From Octopus vulgaris (lineage: Eukaryota), in assembly GCA_951406725.2 (NCBI GenBank), contig OX597816.1, positions 171,802,001 through 171,866,000 on the forward strand: a DNA stretch of 64,000 nucleotides. Reading direction: 5' to 3'. The position numbers and the translations under genes were made by a program. This document shows, one piece after another, positions 4,413 to 45,774 of this stretch. Each line of letters begins with the position of its first letter. The first letter of the stretch is position 1. The notes under the pieces are model-generated. The model worked only from the letters and a program-made list of their open reading frames with translations, did no database searches and was not told where the DNA came from.

Positions 4413-4570
4413 CATGGCTGTGTGGTAAGAAGCTTGCTTCCCAACCACGTGGTTCCGGGTTCGGTATCACTGTATGCCACTTTGGGCAAATGTCTTCTAC
4501 TATAGTCTCGCGTCGACCAAGGCCTTTTAAGTAGATTTGGTAGATGGAAACTTACAGAAGTCTGTCACAC
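4413..4570 (+). mobile_element. SINE family 1, diverged 5' half
   Basis: tggctgtgtggtaag A-box-like, gggttcggtatc B-box-like, and ttgggcaaatgtcttct core. Confidence 0.75.
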
Positions 4571-4580
4571 ACACACACAC

Positions 4581-4758
4581 GATTTTTTTTTCCTCTGTCT
4601 TCCCTTCTCGGGATCTTTCCTTCTCCTATGTTTCCGACGAAGAGCTCCGTTCGAAACGTTAAACCCTCCTTCTTCCCTTCTTTCCTGAGCGTCCAATAAT
4701 ATTTTATTTGTTCCACGTCCTTGCGTTGTTGTATTTTTTTGTTTTCTTGTTTGGATTA

Positions 4759-4762
<4 letters not shown>
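4581..4762 (+). mobile_element. Short HHR-bearing non-coding element (PLE pLTR/retrozyme-like) in a (CA)/(TA) tract
   Basis: Near-identical inverted copy at 45117-45308 and diverged copy at ~16475-16660. Each abuts (TA)n at the same end. Absent from the paralogous empty site at 4877-5018. Confidence 0.8.
4630..4664 (+). ncRNA. Minimal type-I hammerhead ribozyme motif (U4C variant)
   Basis: gttt CCGACGA a gagc-tcc-gttc GAAA cg TT aaac: stem I gttt/aaac, stem II hairpin, palindromic acgt stem III, GUU site. Confidence 0.6.
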
Positions 4763-4820
<58 letters not shown>

Positions 4821-4911
4821 CATCAATATATAAATGTCCTGAATGGAATTTGGGGTGAGTTATCTCGCCTGTCCATGTAGATTTGGTAGATGGAATCTTA
4901 CAGAAGTCTGT

Positions 4912-4953
<42 letters not shown>

Positions 4954-5449
4954 CATCAATATATCGATGTCCATCACTCCTGAATGGGATTTGGGGTGAG
5001 TTATCTCGCCTGTCCATGACTCAGATATTTTAACACCGGCAATTTGAGAGACACACTAACTGTATTCGTTAAGTATATGAGTTCAATAATTTTTATTACA
5101 CTACCGCTGCTTCTCTTTCATGTTTCCATATATTCTCATGTATGCATTGCCAGGGCATACTAGCAAATAGTTTTCACACTATATGCACAGAGGTCGTGGA
5201 CTGGCGATATGATTCATCGCTGATCCAGTTCGGATACGCGATGTTGATAAGCCACAAAAATGGTGAAACATCAGTGTCTTTTGCTCCTGAAAGGGATCTG
5301 GGGTGGATTATCTCACCTGTCCATGACGTTCAGGTGTTTTAACATTCGGCACTTTGAGAGAGTTTTCTCCACCGCGCTAATCGCAGCCTATGTTAGTGCG
5401 TTAAATATGTTGTTCGTAATGTTTGTTACATTGGCACTGCTTCTATTTC

Positions 5450-5509
<60 letters not shown>

Positions 5510-5516
5510 ATATATA

Positions 5517-5614
<98 letters not shown>
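5450..5614. repeat. (TCTA)n/(TA)n microsatellite
   Basis: Read directly from the sequence. Confidence 0.95.
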
Positions 5615-5615
<1 letters not shown>

Positions 5616-5839
5616 TTTATTTAAAGCAGCAAAAATTCAACAAAATCTGTTACTCTGAGTTTCTCGTTGCCGTTCATCAGACAGTTTCTAACAAAAACTG
5701 TCTGATGAACGGCAACGAGAAACTCAGAGTAACAGATTTTGTTGAATTTTTTGCTGCTTTAAATAAAGCATATTACTCTACCACTGGTACTTGAGTACTC
5801 TTTTTTTCCACCTTGTTTCACATTTATGTGTTTACTCCA

Positions 5840-16453: not shown

Positions 16454-16474
16454 ATATATATATATATATAATTT

Positions 16475-16660
16475 TAATAAACGGGAAACAAAAAAACAAC
16501 AACAATGGAACAATTACAGTATTATTATTAATAGGCGCTCAGGAAATGGAAGCAGGGAGGTATGACGTTTCGAGCGGAGCTCTTCGTCGTAAACATAAAG
16601 AAGTAAGAGAGAGGAAAGAAAGATCCCGGAGCGGGCAACGGAGATAGAGAAAAAAACGGC
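16475..16660 (-). mobile_element. Diverged copy of the 4581-4762 HHR-bearing element
   Basis: Shares cgtttcgagcggagctcttcgtcg, cgctcaggaaa and aaagatccc, and abuts (TA)n. Confidence 0.7.
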
Positions 16661-16722
16661 TGGTGTTAGGAGTAGCACATATATATATACGATCGGTGGT
16701 TGTAGTCAGCTGGTCACGTCAT

Positions 16723-34642: not shown

Positions 34643-35124
34643 TCTTTATATGTAAAAGTAAGGTTGTGTGTCTGTCTCCTACGATTTAGATTCCTAACTA
34701 CTCCCACATTTTGCGGTGCGGGTATCTTATAGTCGTGATTCATATCGAGCCCTTCTGGGTATTAGCGCGCGTCTACGATGAGTCTACGATTTAAAAAAAA
34801 ATTTACCATCATTTATTTCCATTTTAATGCATTTTTTCGCTATTATATAAGGGAAGTAACTCTCTAAAAATGTCTACGATGAGTCAACGATTTAAAAAAA
34901 AATTACCATCATTTTTTTCCATATTAATGCATTTTTTTCGCTATTATATAAGGGAAGTAACTCTCTAAAAATGTCTACGATGAGTCAATGATTTAAAAAA
35001 AAATTTACCATAATTTTTTTCCCATTTTTAATGCATTTTTTTGCTTTTTTGGCTATAACTCTCTAAAAATGCTTATATAGTTATTTCCCTTACAAATCCG
35101 AGCAACGCCGGGCGATATTGCTAG
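34643..35124 (+). mobile_element. Non-autonomous Helitron with three internal tandem units
   Basis: a|TC...hairpin...CTAG|t. Confidence 0.92.
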
Positions 35125-43971: not shown

Positions 43972-44587
43972 ACCTCTCTACTCTAGGCACAAGGCCCGAA
44001 ATTTTGGGTGAGTGGGCCAGTCGATTAGATGGACTCCAGTACGCAGCTGGTACTTAATTTATCGACCCCGAAAGGATGAAAGGCAAAGTCGACCTCGGCG
44101 GAGTTTGAACTCAGAACATAAAGACAGACGATTTACCGTTAAGCGTTTCGCCTGGCGTGCTAACGTTTCTTATTTCTTTATTGCCCACAAAGGGCTAAAC
44201 ATAGAGGGGACAAACAAGGACTGGCAAAGAGATTAAGTCGATTATATCGACCTCAGTGCGTAACTGGTACTTATTTAATCGACCCCGAAAGGATGAAAGG
44301 CAAAGTCGACCTCGGCGGAATTTGAACTCAGAACGTAATGGCAGACGAAATACCTATTTCTTTACTACCCACAAGGGGCTAAACACAGAGAGGACAAACA
44401 AGGACAGACAAACGGATTAAGTCGATTACATTGAACCCAGCGCGTAACTGGTACTTAATTTATCGACCCCGAAAGGATGAAAGGTAAAGTGGACCTCGGC
44501 GGAATTTGAACTCAGAACGTAGCGGCAGAAGAAATACCGCTAAGCATTTCGCCCGGCGTGCTAACGTTTCTGCCAGCTTGTCACCGT
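43972..44587 (-). mobile_element. Trimeric SINE family 3 insertion
   Basis: Three tandem units of atcgaccccgaaaggatgaaagg.aaagt.gacctcggcgga.tttgaactcagaac, bounded by one 15-bp TSD agttac(g/a)tcatatat. Confidence 0.88.
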
Positions 44588-45116: not shown

Positions 45117-45121
<5 letters not shown>

Positions 45122-45308
45122 TAATCCAAACAAGAAAACACAAAAAAAAACAAAAAAACAACAACGCGAGGACGTGGAACAAATAAAGTATTATTGGACG
45201 CTCAGGAAAGAAGGGAAGAAGGAGGGTTTAACGTTTCGAGCGGAGCTCTTCGTCGGAAACATAGGAGAAAGAAAGATCCCGAGAAGGGAAGACAGAGGAA
45301 AAAAATCG
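45117..45308 (-). mobile_element. HHR-bearing short element (copy of 4581-4762), HHR at 45226-45260
   Basis: On the - strand: gttt CCGACGA a gagc-tcc-gctc GAAA cg TT aaac. It abuts (TA)n. Confidence 0.8.
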
Positions 45309-45774
45309 CCAGCCATATGTGTACAAGCATATATATATATATATATGCTTGTACACATATACACACTAACATAAATTGTGTACGTTAGCCTAAGATTTGC
45401 CTGCTTTTTTCCCTTGCACAATGAAACCTTATCAAATATCTTTTGTTTCTCGTTAAGAAAGGAACATCTTTCTATATTATCGTCTGCTTTTTGTTCTATT
45501 TGCTAAATTATATAATTATGGTTTGACATGTAGATATACTTGTCTGCTTTTTTTTTTATTATGATAACAACGTGAATAGAGATCTTATGATACTTTTATT
45601 CTCCTGTTTCTCAGAATGTTTCTTTGCATGTGACTTGTCTTTACTTCAAGTGTTTTGTCTTCTATGTCCCCCTTTTTCAGTATATAAGCTGCAATTTCTC
45701 TCTCTCTCTCTCTCTCTCTCTCTGCTAGGTCGCTTCTTTAGAATGTTAGTGAAAACTTTGTACTGCATATTTGT

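What the first reader, a model, noticed from the sequence alone, without database searches (positions are those of the whole stretch)
4531..5018. Natural filled/empty site pair for the 182-bp HHR element
Seen: 4531-4876 and 4877-5018 are tandem duplicates (gtagatttggtagatggaa...gtcacacaca-(TA)n-catacatcaatata...ttatctcgcctgtccat). Only the first copy contains the HHR element 4581-4762, at the (CA)n/(TA)n junction and with no conventional TSD. A near-identical copy at 45117-45308 ends at about the same bases. Inference: this is direct evidence of mobility and microsatellite targeting, and it defines the element boundaries.
Basis: partly seen in the sequence, partly recalled or inferred. Interest (0 to 1): 0.75.

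Follow-up and report, generated by a model that had tools for sequence, protein, structure and literature searches.

The report
Clipped Penelope retrotransposon end in microsatellite
The 182-base piece is the clipped tail end of a known kind of jumping gene (a Penelope-like retrotransposon with thousands of copies in this genome) that likely pasted itself into a TA repeat in one of two neighbouring duplicates; the filled/empty pair is real but ordinary, and it marks the edges of one insertion, not of the element.

Summary
The tandem duplication (4531-4876 / 4877-5017) and the extra 182 bp in copy 1 are real. The 182 bp are not a bounded element. They are the 5'-truncated 3' terminus (pseudo-LTR with a minimal hammerhead) of an RT + GIY-YIG Penelope-like retrotransposon of Neptune/Nematis type: 16 of 20 loci link the ORF end through a CA-rich UTR to this sequence. 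There are 5,426 exact copies of the terminal 20-mer. In 30 position-ordered copies the 3' end is fixed by the search, 29 are followed by (TA)n, and 5' ends run from about 40 to over 1,100 bp. The target is (TA)n; the (CA)n edge is incidental. Insertion rather than deletion is well supported; present-day polymorphism could not be tested. Solo truncated PLE hammerheads and TA bias are published, and the scan noted similar PLE ends elsewhere in this genome. One detail stands out: in three subfamilies the element's own read-through sequence has a short TA tract exactly where insertions end, which suggests priming by annealing to the target.

The parts
4415..4566 (+). Left arm of an abundant SINE-like repeat (SINE label recalled, not tested); its usual internal (TA)n/(TG)n is replaced here by (CA)n/(TA)n and its right arm is missing
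   Evidence: 11 further window copies at 77-84% identity, none carrying the element at this point
4531..4876 (+). Duplicate copy 1 (filled)
   Evidence: alignment; breakpoints; derived 8-bp deletion and 3 substitutions in its right arm against the dispersed family
4567..4580 (+). (CA)n left flank; the C at 4580 fits both flank and element (1-nt microhomology)
4580..4762 (+). 5'-truncated 3' terminus (solo pseudo-LTR) of a Neptune/Nematis-type Penelope-like element
4630..4664 (+). Minimal type I hammerhead: helix I 4630-4633 with 4661-4664, core CCGACGA 4634-4640 (C at position 4), extra A 4641, helix II 4642-4652 (one G-U at 4650 in this copy), GAAA 4653-4656, palindromic ACGU, predicted cut after GUU 4658-4660
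   Evidence: sequence; column counts over 119 copies; features match min-HHR of PMC4209133; cutting not tested
4761..4768 (+). TTTATATA tract shared by the element's read-through sequence and the target: inferred reverse-transcription start
4763..4816 (+). (TA)27 target microsatellite
4877..5017 (+). Duplicate copy 2 (empty site): (CA)4(TA)14
4957..5050 (+). Fragment of another dispersed repeat forming the right arm of the duplicated unit
   Evidence: (40 of 40 scored candidates match, 72-100%)
45117..45313 (-). Second, independent solo copy of the same family, 3' end on (TA)n
16473..16675 (-). Solo copy of the young sister subfamily, 3' end on (TA)n (approximate limits)

Best explanation
The 182 bp are the 5'-truncated 3' end (pseudo-LTR with a minimal hammerhead) of an RT + GIY-YIG Penelope-like retrotransposon, likely inserted by target-primed reverse transcription into the (TA)n run of one of two tandem duplicates, the other keeping the empty site. 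Shown: the duplication, the family, its link to the ORF, constant 3' end on (TA)n, variable 5' ends, a TA tract in the read-through sequence. Inferred: the endonuclease nicks (TA)n; the freed DNA end anneals to the RNA's short UA tract about 100 nt past the hammerhead cut site; synthesis stopped after about 182 nt and joined through 1 nt of microhomology at the CA edge. A lone minimal hammerhead would not cut itself; in the parent it would pair with the second pseudo-LTR as a dimer.
For: Walking 5' from copies gave +35 nt, then a CA-rich UTR, then a GIY-YIG end. 16 of 20 loci chosen on the ORF end have the element 1.3-2.7 kb downstream on the same strand, 3 of 20 also or instead upstream. A sister subfamily has 883-1008-aa open frames in 6.2-kb pLTR-ORF-pLTR units and tandem trimers; motifs DKG, YIDD, CX4CxxC linker, LIYCIKC...YVGQT; Pfam RVT_1 E 9e-5 and GIY-YIG E 0.19, both under cut-off. 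5,426 exact terminal 20-mers, control 0. 29 of 30 position-ordered copies are followed by TA-rich DNA, while (TA)5+ runs cover 1.9% of 400 kb of sampled DNA; lengths about 40 to over 1,120. 6 of 128 examined copies split the SINE-like repeat at its internal TA run with both arms present, and 11 of 11 other window copies of that repeat lack the element: the ancestral site is empty. Published: solo min-HHRs as truncated PLEs (PMC4209133); microsatellite bias and unseen TSDs (PMC8557442); 5' junction by microhomology without TSD (PMC3846280); internal RT start downstream of the HHR (PMC11167929).
Against: Order of events is weakly shown: the duplicates differ by 4 of 96 columns against 2 of 177 between the insert and its nearest relative (P about 0.02 at that rate, 0.16 at 2.2%; nearest-relative choice biases this), and 3 of the 4 events sit in the filled copy within about 30 nt of the TA run, so they may be repair scars. 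The left flank is (CA)7 against (CA)4 in the empty copy, which needs slippage or untemplated addition. Lengths are not uniform: 16 of 30 copies are 163-225 bp, which random truncation alone does not explain. No clade tree with reference elements was built. Reads did not reach the junction.
Confidence: 0.88

Rival explanations
1. A discrete non-autonomous short element (SINE- or retrozyme-like) of about 180-215 bp with its own fixed ends, mobilised in trans by the Penelope-like enzyme.
For: Length mode at 163-225 bp (16 of 30; 21 of 30 at 172-214). 15 of 30 read-through loci are short pLTR-5'UTR-pLTR direct pairs without ORF, which could serve as short source elements.
Against: 5' ends form a continuous ladder from about 40 to over 1,120 bp; the sequence is collinear with the ORF-bearing element; joints in the short pairs mostly differ from locus to locus; the focal copy is about 25-30 nt shorter than the commonest 5' end.
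Confidence: 0.15
2. The duplication arose after the insertion, by unequal exchange between a filled and an empty chromosome, or the two copies are alleles placed in tandem by the assembly.
For: Both arms of the unit are repeats; three of four differences lie in the filled copy; the duplication joint was not tested in reads.
Against: 4 substitutions plus an 8-bp indel in 96 columns is far above the 2 variant sites seen in about 400 bp of adjacent unique flank across 4 runs; both copies carry private changes. Either way copy 2 still shows the pre-insertion state.
Confidence: 0.12
3. The element was present before the duplication and was deleted from copy 2.
For: Microsatellites on both sides could promote deletion; not excluded by an ortholog test.
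Against: Needs a clean excision between unlike repeats; the insert is only 1.1% from its nearest relative while the duplicates differ by about 4%.
Confidence: 0.04

Closest known systems
Neptune/Nematis-type EN+ Penelope-like elements (Craig et al. 2021, PMC8557442: passages and section 15 read; Arkhipova et al. 2013, PMC3846280: passages)
   Same: RT then CX2-5CxxC linker then C-terminal GIY-YIG with two cysteines in the core; pseudo-LTRs, tandem and inverted copies, optional tail; microsatellite bias with TSDs not discernible.
   Different: Long (1.3-2.7 kb) CA-rich 3' UTR; this family was not matched to a named element; Neptune versus Nematis not resolved.
Minimal hammerheads of metazoan PLEs (Cervera and de la Pena 2014, PMC4209133: parts 1-2 of 4 read)
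   Same: No helix III loop, palindromic 15.2-16.2, extra base between 9 and 10.1, G10.1-C11.1 pair, 4-bp helix I, mostly found as single motifs in truncated PLEs.
   Different: Core position 4 is C in 113 of 119 copies; helix II is 4 bp, not 7-8.
Poseidon_Ac of Anolis (Frangieh et al. 2024, PMC11167929: parts 1-2 of 4 read)
   Same: AT-rich target; RT starts inside the RNA about 85-92 nt past the hammerhead cut (about 100 nt here); a second start gives a tail.
   Different: There the start site is reported as not homologous to the cut DNA; here the start site carries a TA tract that matches the target. Tail here is 105-135 nt, not 30-40; the hammerhead does not overlap the ORF start.
Animal non-LTR retrozymes (bioRxiv 10.64898/2026.07.22.740005: part 1 of 5 and passages read)
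   Same: Type I hammerhead, PLE pLTR origin.
   Different: The focal copy is a single pLTR fragment, not a tandem of hammerhead units.

Membership tests
EN+ Penelope-like element | Single ORF with PLE-type RT and GIY-YIG endonuclease linked to the sequence | tested here: met
   Pfam hits below cut-off; no solved relative
EN+ Penelope-like element | Pseudo-LTRs, partial-tandem and tandem arrangement | tested here: met
   L119, L122 pLTR-ORF-pLTR; tandem trimer and dimer of sister subfamily
EN+ Penelope-like element | Inverted 5' copies and optional tail | tested here: met
   6 of 30 read-through loci end 105-135 nt past the usual end on (TA)n, 4 of these with an inverted pLTR upstream
EN+ Penelope-like element | Hammerhead motif in the pLTR | tested here: met
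   33 identical nt between subfamilies that are 76% alike over the element
Neptune or Nematis clade | CX2-5CxxC linker between RT and C-terminal EN; two cysteines in the GIY-YIG core | tested here: met
   CSRSRCNTC at 752 and LIYCIKCNLC at 790 of an 884-aa frame; definition from PMC8557442
Neptune or Nematis clade | Placement in an RT tree with reference elements | not tested
   no reference sequences were at hand from a tool
Naiad/Chlamys or Hydra clades | N-terminal EN (Naiad/Chlamys); no CCHH motif (Hydra) | tested here: not met
   EN is C-terminal and has the core cysteines
Minimal hammerhead ribozyme | Self-cleavage as a dimer | not testable with these tools
   monomer folds do not form the active core; ACGU palindrome duplex -3.5 kcal/mol
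Bounded short element (SINE/MITE-like) | Fixed 5' and 3' ends | tested here: not met
   5' ladder
Non-LTR retrozyme | Tandem non-coding units each with a hammerhead | tested here: not met
   focal copy is single; short direct pairs exist elsewhere in the family

The most novel reading that the evidence does not exclude
TA-targeting Penelope-like elements here carry their own short UA tract at the reverse-transcription start and prime by annealing it to the nicked (TA)n target, so part of the microsatellite tropism is RNA-encoded. The read-through sequence has such a tract exactly at the insertion end in this subfamily (AAC-TTTATATA-CCGC, 50 exact copies), in its young sister (AAA-ATTATA-CCAC, 14 of 14 read-through joints) and in a family only 30% alike in protein (TCT-ATATAT-TAAAC, 5 of 5). 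This is the opposite of the non-homologous start reported for Poseidon_Ac, and intact young copies make it testable in vitro.
Probability: 0.5. Interest if true: 0.45.

Novelty: new member of a known kind. Interest (0 to 1): 0.2.

Why it matters
As stated, little: a filled/empty pair for a truncated Penelope-like insertion in (TA)n confirms known behaviour. Its use is that the empty twin shows the TA run was there before the insertion, so the TA tail is target, not a tail made by the element. The family matters more: intact young copies with a TA tract at the priming site offer a direct test of how these elements find microsatellites, a question Craig et al. 2021 list as open.

Tried and rejected
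Polymorphism and reality of the junction in other individuals: contigs of 5 runs laid in two calls; the tool skipped 4563-4593 and 4563-4650 as repeat, so neither presence nor absence of the insert is shown; only the unique left flank (X1, X2, X3, X18, partly X19) and the 4482-4552 piece (X1, X2, X18) are seen. Idea that 5' ends pile up at the hammerhead cut site (6 of 30 at 87-104 bp, none at 105-148): rejected, the position-ordered set has copies at 120, 136 and 147. The RT-GIY-YIG ORF next to L072 first looked like the parent: rejected, it is a separate family on the other strand with its own terminus. Rfam: no hit. PDB sequence search: no hit. Protein atlas gave no answer. Arkhipova 2006 was not held, so what it says on Neptune junctions is unseen. 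Literature searches for TA-microhomology priming in Neptune elements: 0 papers; 1; 0; subscription papers and Repbase entries are outside the library. No supplements were read. In one search one copy (L218, scored 23 bp) is a broken alignment of a longer copy, and four long copies are lower bounds; three copies were dropped for an unplaced end.

Full report
Observation. The window is microsatellite-rich animal DNA from a 2.8-Gb assembly; octopus-like is my inference from recall of its repeats, not a tool result. The duplication is as described: 4531-4876 and 4877-5017, with one G at the joint that fits either side. Copy 1 has (CA)7-C, 182 extra bases and (TA)27; copy 2 has (CA)4(TA)14. Outside the microsatellite they differ by 4 substitutions and an 8-bp indel in 96 columns. 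The left arm is the end of an abundant SINE-like repeat (11 more copies in the window; the SINE label is recalled) and the right arm is another dispersed repeat. A second copy of the insert lies at 45117-45313 on the minus strand with the same 3' junction and a 5' end about 7 nt longer; a diverged relative lies near 16473-16675.

What the insert is. Searching with that extension gave copies running into a CA-rich region, and following those gave the end of a GIY-YIG domain. Of 20 loci picked on that ORF end, 16 have the insert 1.3-2.7 kb downstream on the same strand, and 3 have it about 2.8-3.0 kb upstream: the pLTR-ORF-pLTR layout of Penelope-like elements. A younger sister subfamily has near-identical 6.2-kb units with open frames of 883-1008 residues, including a tandem trimer and a dimer. 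[quoted passage not shown] Pfam supports this only below its cut-offs. Neptune versus Nematis was not tested by tree.

Ends and target. The terminal 20-mer occurs 5,426 times, control 0; 2 family copies in 400 kb of evenly chosen DNA suggest about 14,000, with wide error. In the first 30 matches by position, which are unselected for 5' length, 29 are followed by TA-rich DNA, against 1.9% coverage by (TA)5+ runs in the sampled DNA; lengths run from about 40 to over 1,120 bp, 16 of 30 at 163-225 bp. About 17 of the 26 whose 5' junction was reached have TA on the 5' side too (counted by eye), so the usual event splits a TA run; the CA edge here is incidental. A set chosen on the last 81 nt gave 87-257 bp. 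So the pair defines one insertion, not the element.

Direction of the event. All 11 other window copies of the SINE-like repeat lack the insert at this point, and 6 of 128 examined family copies split that repeat at its internal TA run with both arms present. These are better-polarised filled/empty comparisons than the pair itself. The insert is 2 substitutions in 177 from its nearest relative, the duplicates 4 in 96 (P about 0.02 at the first rate, 0.16 at twice that), which leans to duplication first. Against that, three of the four events are derived changes in the filled copy close to the TA run and may be repair scars. The 2 variant sites in about 400 bp of unique flank across 4 runs argue that the copies are too unlike to be alleles. 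Read laying could not cross the junction, so polymorphism is untested.

Hammerhead. 4630-4664 has every min-HHR feature listed in PMC4209133 (parts 1-2 read): 4-bp helix I, an extra base after A9, G10.1-C11.1, palindromic ACGU in place of helix III. Position 4 is C in 113 of 119 copies; the cut triplet is GUU in 102 and GUC in 18. 33 consecutive bases are identical between subfamilies that are 76% alike overall, which points to selection in the active lineage. Monomers do not fold into the active form. That paper found single motifs inactive and mostly lying in truncated PLEs; the focal copy fits this (inference).

Mechanism. Upstream pLTRs read on as AAC-TTTATATA-CCGC into the 5' UTR (50 exact copies). 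Terminal copies end at AAC|TATA (33 of 80) or AACTT|TATA (22 of 80; the focal class), with 6 near variants, 16 others and 3 read-through. The young sister reads AAA-ATTATA-CCAC in 14 read-through joints and ends on TA in 12 terminal ones. A separate family, 30% alike in protein, reads TCT-ATATAT-TAAAC in 5 read-through joints and commonly ends at that point on TA. I infer target-primed reverse transcription starting inside the RNA, about 100 nt past the hammerhead cut, helped by 1-6 nt of pairing with the nicked TA run. PMC11167929 (parts 1-2 read) reports an internal start 85-92 nt past the cut but without homology to the target; PMC8557442 notes repeat-assisted attachment for endonuclease-less PLEs and attributes TA bias to the CxxC linker. 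An alternative is that the tract is a promoter TATA box or a relic of self-insertion, as PMC3846280 describes a TATA box in pLTRs. I found no paper stating TA-tract priming, but Arkhipova 2006 and Repbase were not readable. Of 30 read-through loci, 8 continue at least 1.5 kb, 6 end on TA after a 105-135-nt tail (4 with an inverted pLTR upstream), 15 jump after 185-479 nt to a second pLTR, and 1 has an internal ORF deletion.

Verdict. Observation confirmed; interpretation partly supported. It is a new member of a known kind. PLEs are already annotated as recently active in an octopus genome (PMC13282606, passages), and earlier notes of this scan describe PLE ends in TA runs elsewhere in this genome (none near this place; none by sequence). 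Interest 0.2; the homology-assisted priming reading has probability 0.5 and would deserve 0.45.

Noticed in passing
window 5612-5773: Near-perfect 160-bp palindrome inside (TA)n with a CTGATGA...GAAA hammerhead motif on each strand (5702 +, 5680 -): looks like head-to-head pLTRs of another Penelope-like family.
   Followed up: no
window 14079, 33481 (-), 38905: Further CTGA(T/C)GA...GAAA hammerhead-like motifs unrelated to this family.
   Followed up: no
L265, L268, L271, L274, L277, L279, L281-L283, L285-L289, L291: Short ORF-less direct pairs pLTR-5'UTR-pLTR with a period of about 360-690 bp, many with two hammerheads; some share a joint (L277 and L291). Possible birth stage of retrozyme-like elements.
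   Followed up: partly
L147-L149, L150-L151: Tandem trimer and dimer of a young 6.2-kb PLE subfamily with long open frames lacking an early Met in most copies; start codon or frame of the N-terminal part unresolved.
   Followed up: partly
L072:2850-5250, L293-L302: A second young, high-copy Neptune/Nematis-type family (811-aa frames), often as inverted pairs, with two alternative 3' ends about 36 nt apart.
   Followed up: partly
window 4980-5130 and 5284-5450: An older, more diverged local duplicate of the right-arm repeat.
   Followed up: partly
window 44171-44538 and 34771-35042: Two-copy 184-bp and 2.7-copy 101-bp tandem repeats.
   Followed up: no
L015, L036, L216 flanks: Another hammerhead-like repeat family inserted in the same TA runs as this one, in opposite orientation.
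   Followed up: no
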